44,509 bases of DNA from Escherichia phage JSSK01. Under the pieces are notes generated by a model. The model was given only the letters and a program-made list of their open reading frames with translations. It did not search any database and had not been told where the DNA came from. Made by a program: the position numbers and the translations under genes. The stretch lies in the sequence record OQ442786; one strand, given 5' to 3'. Of the stretch, positions 26,897-30,173 are shown one piece after another. Positions within the stretch are counted from its first letter, which is position 1. Every line of letters begins with the position of its first letter.

Positions 26897-26920
26897 AAGG
26901 CCCCAAACGGGGCCTTTTCT
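26897..26920. terminator. bidirectional terminator (AGGCCCC-AAAC-GGGGCCT, TTTTCT)
   Basis: between convergent tailspike and minus-strand replication genes. Confidence 0.7.
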
Positions 26921-27058
26921 CTACTCTTCCGATAACTTCTCCAGTACAAACGCCAGTTGCGCATTAGCGGCGTCTCTCTGTTGCCGTAGTCGCAGAACCT
27001 CCTCTTCGAGTTCCTTGATACGTTTTTGCAATGCCGGAATCGGGGCTATGATGTTCAT
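26921..27058 (-). CDS. hypothetical small coiled-coil protein (45 aa)
   Basis: not in track; ATGA coupling with Toprim gene stop; ends at terminator. Confidence 0.25.
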   Translation of the reverse strand: MNIIAPIPALQKRIKELEEEVLRLRQQRDAANAQLAFVLEKLSEE

Positions 27059-27570
27059 CTGGTAAATTTCCTCGCAAGATACGTTATTTCTTCTTCACAA
27101 AGTTCATCAAGGTCGTTAGATACAAATCCTCTGGTGAATGTTTTGCTGAACTTTAATCCAGCTTTATCATTGTCGCCAGCGCACACCCAGTCATACGGCA
27201 AAAGTGACATTTGCTGCCGTAGGTCTGTTGATATATTTGACCCCAGTGCGCTTACAGCATTGAACCCGCAATTCATCAAGGCTACGGCTTTGAATATGCT
27301 TTCGGTAACAAATACCACCCCGCTTTCCGGCAAATACTCAAGCCCCCATAAACACGGCCTTGTTGTTCTGGTAAAGTACCGCGCGTCTTTAGGGTTTTTA
27401 CAGTTCTTTTCGGCATGTGGTTTGTAATGCTGGTATCCGCGAAGCCTACCGTCAAACCCCCACAGGTAAAACGTAGCTACTCCAGGGGCTAAGACTACCC
27501 GGAGACGGTCGGCGTCAAACCCACGCGCCAGCAGATGCGCCTTAAGTAGTAACTCCTCACAATCCATCAT
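27055..27570 (-). CDS. Toprim-domain protein (DnaG-like primase core or nuclease)
   Basis: VFVTESIFKA (conserved Glu) and CAGDNDKAG (DxD) in Toprim-like order. Confidence 0.5.
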   Translation of the reverse strand: MMDCEELLLKAHLLARGFDADRLRVVLAPGVATFYLWGFDGRLRGYQHYKPHAEKNCKNPKDARYFTRTTRPCLWGLEYLPESGVVFVTESIFKAVALMNCGFNAVSALGSNISTDLRQQMSLLPYDWVCAGDNDKAGLKFSKTFTRGFVSNDLDELCEEEITYLARKFTR

Positions 27571-28991
27571 TTCTTACCTCGTCTCTTCATGTAATTAAGC
27601 AATTCTTCCTGTACTGATTTCTTCTCGTCTGTACGAGCGGCGACAACCTCGTCAAGAGTGTCTTTAGCAACGATGTGGTAGAGGAACACCGGGCGCTCGT
27701 GCCCTGCCTGCTTCTGGCGGACAGGGCCTATACGCTCAACCACCTGCAAATAGTGCTCAAGGTTCCAACCTTGTGAAATAAACGCCAGATGGTGACCGCC
27801 GTCCTGTAAATTCAAACCATGACCGGCTGACGCAGGGTGTACGCACAAGATTTCGATTTCACCTCGGTTCCACGCTTCCATCTGCTTATTACCCTTAGCA
27901 CCTTTGGCAAATGCCTGTGCCTGCGGGAATCGCTTAAGGATGCGCTCCAGTTCGTGCTTGAACTGATAGGCTACAAGCAACGGCGCACCCTGTAACTCCT
28001 CAACAATGGACTCAAGCGCATCAAGTTTAGTGTCGTGCACTTTCTCCCATTCTTTGGTTGCTTCGCCATCTGGTCCCGATACATACACGGCACCAGAAGC
28101 AATCTGCAGGCACTTCGACGTCTTCGCTGCCGCGTTAGCCGCTTCAACTTCTCCGCTCTCCAGTTCCGCGAATAACTTTTCCTCCATATCTATGTACGCC
28201 TGACGCGCTTTCTTCGGCAGGTCGATTTCAACCGGTACAATAATCGGCGCTTCACACCCGAACCACTCGGCGGCGTCAATCGTGAGGCTAATATCCTTCA
28301 TCTTCTGGTGAATTTCACTATCCGCGCCAGGGCGCGCATGATACTCCCGCGCCATAGCCGATTTGCCTTTCTGCACCGAGTTAAACCAGCGGTCGGTGAA
28401 TGCGGTGTATGAAGACCCCAGGCGCTCGCCAGCGTCGATAAACCAGTTCTGGCCCCACAAATCCTTGAGGCCGTTAGGTGATGGTGTACCTGTAAGGTTA
28501 ATGAAACGCTTAACCTTACCGAACGCCACTTTGCTTAGCGCCTTCGCCCGCTTGCTTCCGCCAGAACGGCTGCGGAAAGATTTAAGCTTCGTGCTTTCAT
28601 CGGCAACGATAACAGTAAAAGGCCAGTCGTCTTTTCCGTAGTAGTCAATCAGCCACTCAATAACTTCGTAGTTTGTGCAAACCACGTTAGCATCAGACTC
28701 CAGCGCCGCGATGCGGCGCTTCTCCGAACCAGTTGCATCGACTACACTCAGGCAAGGAAAGTTCCATTTCTCTTGTTCTGCGGGCCACGTGCCTGACGCA
28801 ACACGTAACGGGGCGAGGATTAACACGCGGTCGCCGTCATTAAGTTGGCCGTTGCGGAACAGTCGGTTTAATGTCCACAGTACGCTGCCAGTCTTCCCGG
28901 CACCCATGCTTGCCCAAATATTACAGCGATGGTGCCGCAACATGAACGAAGTCATGAGCTTCTGGTACTCGCGCCTTTGAAACTTAGACAT
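27567..28991 (-). CDS. SNF2/DEAD-like superfamily 2 helicase
   Basis: start reassigned to ATG 28991 (MSKFQ, GAGG SD); Walker A GAGKTGS, DEST box (VIVADEST), helicase C-terminal QVVERIGPVRQ. Confidence 0.85.
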   Translation of the reverse strand: MSKFQRREYQKLMTSFMLRHHRCNIWASMGAGKTGSVLWTLNRLFRNGQLNDGDRVLILAPLRVASGTWPAEQEKWNFPCLSVVDATGSEKRRIAALESDANVVCTNYEVIEWLIDYYGKDDWPFTVIVADESTKLKSFRSRSGGSKRAKALSKVAFGKVKRFINLTGTPSPNGLKDLWGQNWFIDAGERLGSSYTAFTDRWFNSVQKGKSAMAREYHARPGADSEIHQKMKDISLTIDAAEWFGCEAPIIVPVEIDLPKKARQAYIDMEEKLFAELESGEVEAANAAAKTSKCLQIASGAVYVSGPDGEATKEWEKVHDTKLDALESIVEELQGAPLLVAYQFKHELERILKRFPQAQAFAKGAKGNKQMEAWNRGEIEILCVHPASAGHGLNLQDGGHHLAFISQGWNLEHYLQVVERIGPVRQKQAGHERPVFLYHIVAKDTLDEVVAARTDEKKSVQEELLNYMKRRGKK

Positions 28992-29667
28992 GATTAGCCT
29001 CGTAAACTGCTTTCGCAAACCCTCTCGGAGTAAGGCTGCGGATTGTCTTTGTCCGCACTGATTTACCGCCAAGTTTGTTGTGCTGGTCGGAGTACCCATC
29101 AACAACGGCAACACATGATTTAACCGGCATAACAAAACCGTTACCCGCCCAAATACATGTCTTCTTAGGGTACGCGTCCCGTGGTTTTATGTATTCAGGG
29201 AACATTGGGTGTGTGTCGTTTTCCGGTAGATAGCCGCCGTATTCGTAGGGATTGAACGCGTAGTCGGGCCTACGCCATAAAGACGAAAGAACGCTAACAG
29301 GGTTCTCAATCATATACGGTACTTTGTACTTTTTAGCCAGACGCGCTGCCACTTTGCATGTAATCACAGCCTCTACCTGAAACGTTGGGTTCTTCTTACG
29401 CTTCGTTTCGAAATGCGCCGCGCCACTAACGGCTAAATCTGTGCAAGGAGGGAACGCAAAAATAATATCCGGCGAAACCTCGAAGTCGAACTTATTATCA
29501 ATCCACGCGTTTATATAGTGGATGTTCTCGTGTTCAACCTTTGCACCCAATCGTGCGTAGTCGCCGTGGTCAGCGCCATCGTAGTTGAAACAGTAGCAAG
29601 TATGGCCTGCTTCTGCCCACGGTTGGGCCATAAGGCCCGAACCGTCAAACAATGACCAAACAATCAT
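28984..29667 (-). CDS. DNA (cytosine-5)-methyltransferase-like protein (compact, atypical)
   Basis: motif I LFDGSG, motif IV PPCT (Cys ~75), motif VI ENP (~121) with spacing similar to C5-MTases; only 227 aa. Confidence 0.55.
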   Translation of the reverse strand: MIVWSLFDGSGLMAQPWAEAGHTCYCFNYDGADHGDYARLGAKVEHENIHYINAWIDNKFDFEVSPDIIFAFPPCTDLAVSGAAHFETKRKKNPTFQVEAVITCKVAARLAKKYKVPYMIENPVSVLSSLWRRPDYAFNPYEYGGYLPENDTHPMFPEYIKPRDAYPKKTCIWAGNGFVMPVKSCVAVVDGYSDQHNKLGGKSVRTKTIRSLTPRGFAKAVYEANHV

Positions 29668-29855
29668 TTCGCCACCAGAACTAACTCTTTACGCCCGAAC
29701 GCCGTAACGTTACCAGTTACATCTTCAATAACCAGTTTACCGTTCGACTCGACGAACACCGTATCAACGGCAACAGGGCGACGGGTCTTAACGTTGAAAA
29801 TCATGTCGCCCGGTACGATGTCGCGTGCTGGTTTGCGGTCATATTCGTGTTTCAT
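29664..29855 (-). CDS. hypothetical protein (63 aa)
   Basis: track ORF, ATGA-coupled to methyltransferase gene; downstream of conserved promoter cassette. Confidence 0.45.
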   Translation of the reverse strand: MKHEYDRKPARDIVPGDMIFNVKTRRPVAVDTVFVESNGKLVIEDVTGNVTAFGRKELVLVAK

Positions 29856-29885: not shown

Positions 29886-30173
29886 CTAACTATAATAGCT
29901 CGCTATTAGGGTGTCAACCTGTTTAAACGAACCGACGACAAAAACATTCGCACCACGTTTACGCATCCGCTCGTGCTCGCGTAACTGGTGCGGGTCAGGC
30001 TTCGTGTTTTCGTCTTTCTTAACCTCGACGAACCAGACGATGCCGCCTGGGAGAATTGCCAGCAGGTCGGGAGCACCCGAACGTCCTTCGTAGGAGAGCT
30101 TACGAACGAGGCCCCCCAGGGCCTCGAATCGGTCTTTTGCGTATTTCTGTATTTTGCCCTCAGGAGTACTCAT
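29886..30173 (-). CDS. VRR-NUC domain nuclease
   Basis: GAPDLLAILPGGIVWFVEVKK matches the VRR-NUC signature (PD...EVK). Confidence 0.65.
   Translation of the reverse strand: MSTPEGKIQKYAKDRFEALGGLVRKLSYEGRSGAPDLLAILPGGIVWFVEVKKDENTKPDPHQLREHERMRKRGANVFVVGSFKQVDTLIASYYS
29889..29917 (-). promoter_or_regulatory. replication-module promoter cassette copy 1 (TTGACA-17-TATAGT)
   Basis: plus-strand text AACTATAATAGC...CTATT...GTGTCAAC; three near-identical copies. Confidence 0.55.

What the first reader, a model, noticed from the sequence alone, without database searches (positions are those of the whole stretch)
28984..29667. Compact atypical C5-methyltransferase-like protein translationally coupled to the SNF2-like helicase
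The 227-aa protein has C5-MTase-like motif I (LFDGSG), a catalytic Pro-Cys (PPCT rather than the usual PCQ) and motif VI as ENP rather than ENV, with spacing close to canonical enzymes, but it is about 100 aa shorter than typical C5-MTases. Its last codons overlap the helicase start by 8 nt. No restriction endonuclease partner is apparent, so an orphan MTase protecting the genome from host restriction, or an enzyme with altered chemistry or substrate, is plausible.
Basis: partly seen in the sequence, partly recalled or inferred. Interest (0 to 1): 0.6.

Follow-up and report, generated by a model that had tools for sequence, protein, structure and literature searches.

The report
Compact phage orphan cytosine-C5 methyltransferase gene
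This is the short "Dcm-like" DNA cytosine methyltransferase gene that Jersey/Kagunavirus-type phages and many other phages carry in their replication operon; it is real and already annotated in public genomes, but no biochemical test of it turned up.

Summary
A 227-aa ORF lies at 28984-29667 (-). It contains LFDGSG, PPC and ENP, its stop overlaps the SNF2-like helicase ATG by 8 nt, and its ATG overlaps the stop of a 63-aa ORF by 4 nt.

The window is a near-complete Guernseyvirinae (Kagunavirus) phage genome. Phage Jersey has the same gene in the same arrangement, annotated "DNA methyltransferase". A 98%-identical copy is annotated "Dcm".

The enzyme is short because the segment between motif VIII and the C-terminal motif is only about 29 residues. 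Residues 156-199 form a cassette that exists as two discrete alleles on otherwise 90-95% identical backbones, the pattern expected of a specificity module.

Best reading: an active orphan C5 DNA methyltransferase of unknown target, expressed with replication genes. Nothing supports altered chemistry. The verdict is already known and of low interest, although activity and specificity appear untested.

The parts
28984..29667 (-). 227-aa compact C5-methyltransferase-like gene (PHROG 757 family, 'Dcm-like')
29635..29652 (-). Motif I-like LFDGSG (residues 6-11), the presumed cofactor-binding loop
   Evidence: Translation. F7, G9, S10 and G11 are invariant among 28 sequences of at least 59% identity. 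In the wider family the first Gly is usually Y/R/F/K.
29443..29451 (-). Motif IV PPC with the presumed catalytic Cys75
   Evidence: Translation. C75 is present in 63/64 and P73 in 59/64 diverse family members. hhalign aligns it to GFPCQ of M.HhaI and to SPCNDLS of DNMT3A.
29299..29307 (-). Motif VI ENP (Glu121 is the presumed proton donor to cytosine N3)
   Evidence: Translation. E121 64/64, N122 60/64, P123 64/64. Aligned to ENV of M.HhaI by hhalign.
29071..29202 (-). Residues 156-199: variable cassette around strand beta7, at the place of the target-recognition domain. This window carries the 'YSDQHNK' allele.
   Evidence: Among 227-aa relatives, identity to the window is 87-95% in residues 1-155 and 89-100% in 200-227, but 50-59% in 156-199 in the 33 relatives with the other allele. 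Nucleotide identity to phage Jersey is 54% here against 90% in codons 1-155. Both alleles also occur on roughly 62%-identical backbones.
29005..29040 (-). C-terminal motif RSLTPRGFAKAV (residues 210-221), resembling motif X and/or motif IX
   Evidence: R210 62/64, S211 58/64, T213 58/64, P214 61/64, G216 62/64, A220 61/64. It lies at the start of the last helix, 215-225. Assignment to motif X is by eye against GRSWSVP of DNMT3A and GNSV of M.HhaI (aligned to each other). No residue-level structural alignment confirmed it.
29664..29855 (-). Upstream 63-aa ORF of unknown function; its stop overlaps the methyltransferase ATG (ATGA)
   Evidence: phrog_4879, unknown function, E 2.7e-46. Present in phage Jersey as gp38. 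Not homologous to the small ORFs that precede the methyltransferase in Webervirus or Sashavirus.
27567..28991 (-). SNF2-like helicase (474 aa); its start overlaps the methyltransferase stop by 8 nt
   Evidence: PF00176 E 2.2e-12 and phrog_62 E 2.4e-168. Start context with the GAGG Shine-Dalgarno.
27055..27570 (-). Toprim/primase-like gene; it overlaps the helicase stop by 4 nt
   Evidence: Toprim_2 E 9.7e-5 and phrog_849 E 1.6e-48.
29889..29917 (-). Promoter-like site TTGACA-17-TATAGT (11/12) just upstream of the 63-aa ORF; candidate start of the transcription unit
   Evidence: Consensus scan. Phage Jersey carries an annotated promoter at the equivalent place inside its VRR-NUC gene. This is a pattern match only.
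26897..26916 (-). Terminator-like hairpin (8 bp, 6 G-C, T-rich tail) downstream of the primase-like gene; candidate end of the unit
   Evidence: This is a pattern match only.

Best explanation
The gene most likely encodes an active, stand-alone (orphan) SAM-dependent DNA cytosine-C5 methyltransferase of a large phage and prophage family of minimal size.

Inferred mechanism, by analogy with C5 methyltransferases:
1. The target cytosine is flipped out of the helix.
2. Cys75 of the PPC loop attacks C6, and Glu121 of ENP protonates N3.
3. The methyl group of SAM, held by the LFDGSG loop and the C-terminal RS..P motif, is transferred to C5.
4. Beta-elimination releases the enzyme.

The enzyme is short for two reasons. 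The linker between motif VI and strand beta6 is only about 19 residues. The segment between beta7 (motif VIII region) and the C-terminal motif is only about 29 residues, where canonical enzymes have a target-recognition domain of about 80-130 residues. Sequence recognition is therefore probably carried by the small exchangeable cassette (residues 156-199) and perhaps by the 144-169 insertion. The target sequence is unknown.

The gene appears to be co-transcribed with a 63-aa ORF, the SNF2-like helicase and a Toprim primase-like gene. The enzyme would then be made while phage DNA replicates and would mark progeny DNA against a particular host restriction specificity, not against restriction in general.

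Shown here: the gene, the motifs, the fold class, purifying selection, the cassette polymorphism and the operon layout. Inferred: catalysis, the cofactor, DNA as substrate, the role of the cassette and the biological purpose.
For: - **Family.** phrog_757 'DNA methyltransferase' E 1.5e-85. There are 4830 clusters at 90% identity and 1225 representatives at 50% identity, nearly all 210-260 aa. tblastn finds it in 1543 of 50,697 phage records, commonly annotated as a cytosine methyltransferase.
- **Catalytic residues.** Across 64 members at 33-62% identity: C75 63/64, E121 64/64, N122 60/64. hhalign places PPC on PCQ and ENP on ENV of M.HhaI, and motifs I-IV on DNMT3A (E 1.3e-4).
- **Selection.** dN/dS 0.04 against RP180.
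- **Specificity-type polymorphism.** There are two discrete alleles of residues 156-199 on near-identical backbones. Among the 120 closest clusters, 79 carry the 'YSxQ' type and 36 the 'NPGW' type.
- **Context.** The gene always lies in replication or early modules, often beside another DNA methyltransferase. Examples are Dam-like in Dhillonvirus, N6 in Vequintavirus and phrog_954 in a Burkholderia prophage.
- **No partner.** No endonuclease partner, second methyltransferase or CmoA was found among the scanned replication-module ORFs or in the RP180 annotation.
- **Expression.** A gene annotated as a C-5 cytosine methylase is reported as transcribed in a phage listed among Guernseyvirinae papers, vB_Eco_K1B4 (PMC12645636).
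Against: - No biochemical or methylome evidence for this family was found in ten literature searches.
- The protein fails Pfam PF00145's gathering score. Only 5 of 64 family members reach E <= 0.1. A family profile finds DNMT2 and M.HaeIII in the PDB only at E 0.4-0.8.
- The canonical QxRxR of motif VIII is not recognisable (DAYPKKT in its place).
- The motif II acidic residue is Asn28 in this clade, against Asp in 59/64 of the wider family.
- The first Gly of motif I is not conserved family-wide.
- Separate motifs IX and X cannot both be identified.
- TM-scores to solved structures are modest (0.4-0.55).
- Kagunavirus phages are reported as highly sensitive to the restriction-modification systems tested. 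Any protective effect must be narrow.
Confidence: 0.7

Rival explanations
1. The protein has the C5-methyltransferase fold but transfers a group other than methyl. One candidate is carboxymethyl from Cx-SAM, as CmoX does, using Cx-SAM made by the host's CmoA.
Confidence: 0.06
2. The protein is a degenerate, catalytically weak or inactive relative retained for DNA binding or a regulatory or replication-accessory role, possibly working with the adjacent SNF2-like helicase.
For: Motif VIII arginines are not recognisable. The protein falls below Pfam's threshold. The target-recognition segment is minimal. The gene overlaps the helicase gene here, and a homologous helicase is adjacent in Dhillonvirus. 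Kagunavirus shows no restriction-resistance phenotype.
Against: The nucleophile Cys and the Glu of motif VI are nearly invariant or invariant across 64 diverse members, which is hard to explain without catalysis. dN/dS is 0.04. Gene order relative to the helicase is reversed in Dhillonvirus. In Vequintavirus, Webervirus and Sashavirus the neighbour is a different gene, so no fixed partnership exists.
Confidence: 0.12
3. The substrate is not double-stranded DNA. It could be a tRNA or other RNA (as for DNMT2), or single-stranded replication intermediates.
Against: DNA methyltransferases score higher than DNMT2 in both fold searches. The two-allele cassette looks like DNA-specificity swapping. 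The gene sits with DNA replication genes and other DNA methyltransferases.
Confidence: 0.05
4. It is one subunit of a split C5 methyltransferase (as in M.AquI or M.EcoHK31I), with the missing recognition part encoded by the overlapping 63-aa ORF upstream.
For: The 63-aa ORF is translationally overlapped (ATGA) and conserved in phage Jersey. Small ORFs also overlap the methyltransferase start in Webervirus and Sashavirus.
Against: Those small ORFs share no detectable similarity with each other. Dhillonvirus and Vequintavirus have no such ORF. The 63-aa protein matches only an unknown-function PHROG. The 227-aa protein already ends with a conserved C-terminal helix motif.
Confidence: 0.04

Closest known systems
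Phage 'Dcm-like' compact methyltransferases (PHROG 757), e.g. Salmonella phage Jersey gp37, Raoultella phage RP180 ORF33, Salmonella phage SHWT1 'Dcm', BASEL phages KarlBarth gp36 and JohannBauhin bas53_0073
   Same: Same family, length, motifs and operon position. Jersey has the identical layout: 63-aa ORF, 227-aa methyltransferase, 8-nt overlap, helicase. SHWT1 is 98% identical in protein. RP180 is 91% identical in DNA over the region.
   Different: Only the allele of the 156-199 cassette differs. The window, RP180 and SHWT1 carry the 'YSDQHNK' type and Jersey the 'DNPGWAK' type. I found no experimental characterisation of any of them.
Canonical bacterial C5 DNA methyltransferases (Pfam PF00145; M.HhaI, M.HaeIII, E. 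coli Dcm)
   Different: About 100 aa shorter. There is no large target-recognition domain: 29 residues between P181 and R210. The motif VI to beta6 linker is very short. It has ENP instead of ENV, no clear QxRxR, and one C-terminal motif instead of separate IX and X. It scores below Pfam's gathering threshold.
Catalytic domain of eukaryotic DNMT3A/DNMT3B
   Different: Sequence identity is only 12-18% and TM-scores 0.4-0.55. The protein lacks the PWWP and ADD domains. No evidence bears on DNMT3-type dimer or tetramer interfaces. An HMM search of the PDB did not retrieve DNMT3 at E <= 10. The resemblance may reflect shared compactness rather than close kinship.
CmoX, phage DNA cytosine C5-carboxymethyltransferase (PDB 8yf3; PMC12783734)
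   Same: C5-methyltransferase fold, phage-encoded, Pro-Pro-Cys nucleophile motif, and an Arg in the C-terminal cofactor-facing motif.
   Different: CmoX is about 100 aa longer and is usually encoded with CmoA and an amide ligase. None of these is present here.

Membership tests
PHROG 757 (phage 'DNA methyltransferase', compact Dcm-like) | Full-length significant match to the family profile | tested here: met
   E 1.5e-85, 287 bits, residues 1-226 on profile positions 15-219 of 247. A Burkholderia prophage relative also matches.
C5 DNA methyltransferase (Pfam PF00145 DNA_methylase) | Score at or above Pfam's gathering threshold | tested here: not met
   17.1 bits against a cut-off of 22, covering only residues 3-101. 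Only 5 of 64 family members reach E <= 0.1, and the best of them is only E 0.0038.
C5 DNA methyltransferase | Class I methyltransferase fold closest to solved C5 DNA methyltransferases | tested here: met
C5 DNA methyltransferase | Motif IV Pro-Cys with a conserved nucleophilic Cys | tested here: met
   P74-C75. Cys is present in 63/64 members. Aligned to PCQ of M.HhaI and PCN of DNMT3A.
C5 DNA methyltransferase | Motif VI Glu-Asn-Val | tested here: met
   ENP, with E121 64/64, N122 60/64 and Pro in place of Val in 64/64. Aligned to ENV of M.HhaI. Glu and Asn are present; the third residue differs.
C5 DNA methyltransferase | Motif I F-x-G-x-G and the motif II acidic residue (cofactor binding) | tested here: inconclusive
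   F7-D-G9-S-G11 is present and invariant in the close clade. The first Gly is replaced in most of the wider family. The motif II position is Asn28 here, against Asp in 59/64. Cofactor binding itself cannot be tested with these tools.
C5 DNA methyltransferase | Motif VIII Q-x-R-x-R before strand beta7 | tested here: inconclusive
   The sequence before beta7 is D164-A-Y166-P-K168-K-T170, with D, Y, K and T nearly invariant. No Arg pair is present. Which residue substitutes cannot be decided without a residue-level structural alignment. hhalign was not confident beyond motif VI.
C5 DNA methyltransferase | A target-recognition domain between motif VIII and motif IX, followed by motifs IX and X | tested here: inconclusive
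   Only 21-46 residues (median 29) lie between P181 and R210. A single conserved motif RS-x-TP-x-GFA-x-A follows. The 156-199 segment behaves like a swappable specificity cassette.
C5 DNA methyltransferase | SAM-dependent methylation of cytosine C5 in DNA | not testable with these tools
   No experimental report was found for this family in ten full-text searches.
Type II restriction-modification system | A cognate restriction endonuclease gene next to the methyltransferase | tested here: not met
   The neighbours are a 63-aa unknown ORF, a VRR-NUC resolvase-type nuclease, an SNF2 helicase, a Toprim primase-like gene and a DNA polymerase. The rest of the replication module holds exonucleases, an SSB-like protein and a helicase-primase. 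The RP180 and Jersey annotations list no restriction enzyme, apart from the VRR-NUC mislabelled as one in a single record.
CmoX-type C5 carboxymethyltransferase | SPPC motif, an Arg at the M.HhaI Asn304 position, and usually CmoA (a Cx-SAM synthase) in the same genome | tested here: inconclusive
   On the Arg: R210 may or may not be the equivalent residue, and DNMT3A has an Arg there too. The other two criteria are not met. The window has FPPC, not SPPC. No CmoA-like gene is present in the window or in the RP180 annotation. Criteria are from PMC12783734.
Split C5 methyltransferases (M.AquI, M.EcoHK31I type) | A second, co-conserved subunit gene supplying the missing C-terminal motifs | tested here: not met
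   The small upstream ORFs in different phage groups are unrelated and are absent in Dhillonvirus and Vequintavirus.

The most novel reading that the evidence does not exclude
The most novel reading not excluded concerns the 210-260-aa family as a whole. It may be the smallest self-sufficient C5 DNA methyltransferase scaffold known. It may read DNA in a DNMT3-like way, through short loops and perhaps dimerisation, with specificity set by a cassette of about 45 residues that phages exchange. Alternatively it may need the replication helicase to reach its sites. In either case it would be a new recognition mode for a bacterial or phage C5 enzyme, and a compact, re-targetable methyltransferase for engineering.
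Probability: 0.15. Interest if true: 0.55.

Novelty: already known. Interest (0 to 1): 0.22.

Why it matters
As a genome feature it matters little. The gene is a routinely annotated accessory of Jersey/Kagunavirus-type and many other enterobacterial phages.

What remains open is biochemical:
- Is a 227-aa protein without a normal recognition domain active by itself?
- What sequence does it mark?
- Do the two cassette alleles encode two specificities?

The answers would explain part of the host-range and restriction behaviour of therapeutic Salmonella and E. coli phages. They could also provide a very small C5 methyltransferase scaffold.

Tried and rejected
1. **Sequence searches of the PDB.** The protein alone gave nothing. 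A 64-sequence family profile gave only generic Rossmann-type hits, plus DNMT2 and M.HaeIII at E 0.4-0.8 over the N-terminal 85 residues.
2. **NCBIfam and PADLOC.** No hit for the methyltransferase.
3. **Residue-level mapping of the C-terminal half onto M.HhaI or DNMT3A.** hhalign against single sequences aligned only motifs IV-VII (M.HhaI) or I-IV (DNMT3A). A 120-sequence M.HhaI-family profile was too shallow (all members at least 71% identical) and gave no confident alignment past motif VI.
4. **MAFFT alignment of M.HhaI with DNMT3A** as a seed profile. It mis-aligned the middle and was not used for a search.
5. **Split-enzyme idea**, with the 63-aa ORF as a second subunit. Rejected because there is no homology among the upstream small ORFs.
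6. **Fixed methyltransferase-helicase partnership.** Rejected as a general rule because gene order and neighbours vary.
7. **Target-motif footprint in oligonucleotide statistics.** No clear candidate emerged. CCWGG is only mildly low (z about -2) and GGCC mildly low in the window and RP180. The dominant signal is GATC avoidance, which need not concern this enzyme.
8. **AFDB fold library.** Unavailable.
9. **The search for related loci with the diverse alignment.** It failed for lack of conserved stretches. The closer alignment worked.
10. **Literature.** Ten searches found annotations only, with no assay of this family. A Klebsiella phage study reports EcoRII resistance, but host Dcm confounds it.
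Full report
**What is there.** The minus strand carries an ATG-started ORF at 28984..29667 encoding 227 aa. Translating the sub-coordinates confirms LFDGSG (residues 6-11), PPC (73-75) and ENP (121-123). The last codons read ...GAG GCT AAT CAT GTC TAA. The ATG of the next gene (MSKFQRREYQ..., an SNF2-like helicase) lies inside them, giving an 8-nt overlap at 28984-28991. A GAGG Shine-Dalgarno sits 6 nt before that ATG. The methyltransferase ATG in turn overlaps the TGA of a 63-aa ORF (ATGA), and the helicase stop overlaps the start of a Toprim primase-like gene by 4 nt. A near-consensus promoter-like site (TTGACA-17-TATAGT, 29917-29889) precedes the 63-aa ORF. A strong terminator-like hairpin (26916-26897) follows the primase-like gene. 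These are pattern matches only, but phage Jersey has a promoter annotated at the equivalent spot.

**Where the window comes from.** The 3.4-kb region is 91% identical to Raoultella phage RP180 (Guernseyvirinae, Kagunavirus). It matches hundreds of Salmonella and Escherichia phages of that subfamily, so the window is essentially a whole phage genome of that type. The type phage Jersey has exactly the same arrangement: a 63-aa ORF, a 227-aa gp37 annotated 'DNA methyltransferase, similar to Dcm of phage TLS', an 8-nt overlap, then the helicase. Salmonella phage SHWT1 encodes a 98%-identical protein labelled Dcm, and its paper only lists the annotation. The feature is thus already in public annotation.

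**What the protein is.** Pfam's C5 methylase model scores 17.1 bits, below its cut-off of 22, and covers only residues 3-101. NCBIfam and PADLOC give nothing, and sequence searches of the PDB are uninformative. PHROG 757 'DNA methyltransferase' matches end to end (E 1.5e-85).

The family is large:
- 4830 clusters at 90% identity;
- 1225 representatives at 50% identity, nearly all 210-260 aa;
- tblastn hits in 1543 of 50,697 phage records, including Dhillonvirus, Vequintavirinae, Drexlerviridae (Webervirus) and Sashavirus;
- relatives in bacterial genome assemblies from many phyla; the one checked, in Burkholderia cenocepacia, lies among phage-type genes.

**Conservation and anatomy.** In 64 diverse members (33-62% identical to the window):
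- The nucleophile Cys75 is present in 63.
- Glu121 and Pro123 are present in all, and Asn122 in 60.
- F72-P73-P74 and T76 are nearly invariant.
- Further invariant or near-invariant positions are R132, P140, D164, Y166, K168, T170, W173, P181 and the C-terminal R210-S211-x-T213-P214-x-G216.

hhalign places PPC and ENP on PCQ and ENV of M.HhaI and motifs I-IV on DNMT3A. Both reference sequences were checked against PDB entries.

The 100 'missing' residues are accounted for by two features. The motif VI to beta6 link is a fixed 19 residues. The P181 to R210 segment has a median of 29 residues, where canonical enzymes carry the target-recognition domain.

Three canonical features are not clearly met:
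- QxRxR of motif VIII is replaced by DAYPKKT.
- The motif II acidic residue is Asn28 in this clade, against Asp in 59/64 of the family.
- The first Gly of motif I is not conserved in the wider family.

I could not obtain a residue-level structural alignment, so assigning the last motif to motif X rests on resemblance to GRSWSVP of DNMT3A and GNSV of M.HhaI. It is an inference.

**Evidence that it is a working, sequence-specific enzyme.** The gene is under strong purifying selection (dN/dS 0.04 at dS 0.45 against RP180). Among same-length relatives, residues 1-155 and 200-227 stay 87-100% identical to the window. Residues 156-199 fall into two discrete types. One is 'PEYIKPR...VKSCVAVVDGYSDQHNK', found in the window and RP180. 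The other is 'PDVIPAR...DVAVVAADSGDNPGWAK', found in Jersey and 33 of the 36 same-length (227-aa) clusters among the 37 nearest. At the DNA level, identity to Jersey drops from 90% to 54% in that block. Both types recur on backbones only about 62% identical. Among the 120 nearest clusters, 79 carry the first type and 36 the second. A module exchanged between lineages at the position of the recognition domain is what specificity swapping in DNA methyltransferases looks like. This is my inference and was not tested.

**Context and biology.** No restriction endonuclease, second methyltransferase or Cx-SAM synthase is encoded in the replication module I scanned or annotated in RP180 or Jersey. One RP180 record labels the 95-aa VRR-NUC protein 'restriction endonuclease', but RefSeq and PHROGs call it a Holliday-junction resolvase.

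The helicase neighbour is not a fixed partner:
- In Dhillonvirus the order is helicase then methyltransferase.
- In Vequintavirus the neighbour is a primase-helicase.
- In Webervirus the helicase is 1 kb away.
- In Sashavirus the neighbours are unrelated.

The small ORFs that overlap the methyltransferase start in different phages are unrelated to each other, which argues against a split enzyme.

The BASEL study reports Kagunavirus isolates as highly sensitive to the restriction-modification systems tested (PMC11990801). An earlier BASEL paper found no simple link between phage methyltransferase genes and restriction resistance (PMC8594841). Any protection is therefore narrow. A transcriptome of phage vB_Eco_K1B4, a paper retrieved by the Guernseyvirinae search, lists a gene annotated as a C-5 cytosine methylase among the transcribed phage genes (PMC12645636).

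**Alternative chemistry.** CmoX, a phage C5 carboxymethyltransferase, is a near fold neighbour. It owes its Cx-SAM selectivity to an Arg at the M.HhaI Asn304 position (PMC12783734). This family has a conserved Arg210 in the corresponding motif. DNMT3A, a normal SAM enzyme, also has Arg at that aligned position, and the CmoA and ligase companions are absent. I give this reading a low probability.

**Verdict.** The core interpretation, a compact orphan C5-methyltransferase-like enzyme, is supported by fold, family and conservation. The gene is an already annotated member of a very common phage family. What is unknown is its activity, its target and how so small a protein reads DNA. Interest is low (0.22), with a modest chance (about 0.15) that the family hides an unusual recognition mode.

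Noticed in passing
whole window (GATC sites at 695, 14657, 32295): GATC is almost absent. There are 3 sites against 135 +/- 11 in dinucleotide-preserving shuffles, and about 145 expected from a Markov model (z -11.8). RP180 (11 sites) and phage Jersey (7 sites) show the same. CTAG is also low (26 against 72). This suggests strong selection against Dam, MutH or GATC-specific restriction targets in a phage that has no Dam gene.
   Followed up: partly
window 29071-29202 (methyltransferase residues 156-199): There are two discrete alleles of this block among otherwise 87-95% identical methyltransferases. DNA identity to phage Jersey is 54% here against 90% upstream. Both alleles recur on distant backbones, which is a sign of cassette exchange between phage lineages.
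   Followed up: yes
window 29889-29917 (-) and 26897-26916 (-): A near-consensus sigma-70 promoter-like site lies inside the 3' end of the VRR-NUC gene. A strong hairpin with a T tract follows the primase-like gene. Together they bracket a four-gene unit: 63-aa ORF, methyltransferase, helicase, Toprim gene.
   Followed up: partly
window 27567-28991 (-): The SNF2-like replication helicase also matches defence-system helicase models in PADLOC: ZorD E 1.8e-14, DpdE E 7e-13 and DrmD E 1.3e-8. This probably reflects shared SNF2 ancestry only.
   Followed up: no
window 29886-30173 (-); L002 28476-28763: The 95-aa VRR-NUC protein is labelled 'restriction endonuclease' in the GenBank RP180 record, but 'Holliday junction resolvase' in RefSeq and in PHROGs. 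This is an annotation inconsistency that could mislead a search for a restriction partner.
   Followed up: partly
L003 4193-4516; L007 26433-26918 and 1845-3224; one search hits with 2-4 pieces: Homing or HNH endonuclease genes are inserted at different places in and around the helicase-methyltransferase module in related phages (KarlBarth, Jersey and others). This explains the fragmented DNA matches.
   Followed up: no
methyltransferase residues 9 and 28 (window 29641-29643 and 29584-29586): The first Gly of motif I is Y/R/F/K in most of the wider family. The motif II acidic position is Asn in this whole clade (28 of 28 sequences at >= 59% identity) but Asp in 59 of 64 diverse members. The cofactor pocket may differ between sub-clades.
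   Followed up: partly
window 14406-15077 (-): An Ant-like anti-repressor gene (phrog_63, E 6e-57) lies between the tail genes and a DNA repair exonuclease, in a phage of a group usually described as virulent.
   Followed up: no
L013 4674-5183: In a Burkholderia cenocepacia genome, among phage-type genes, the compact C5-like methyltransferase is followed directly by a second, unrelated DNA methyltransferase (phrog_954). Dhillonvirus (Dam-like) and Vequintavirus (N6) also pair it with another methyltransferase nearby.
   Followed up: no
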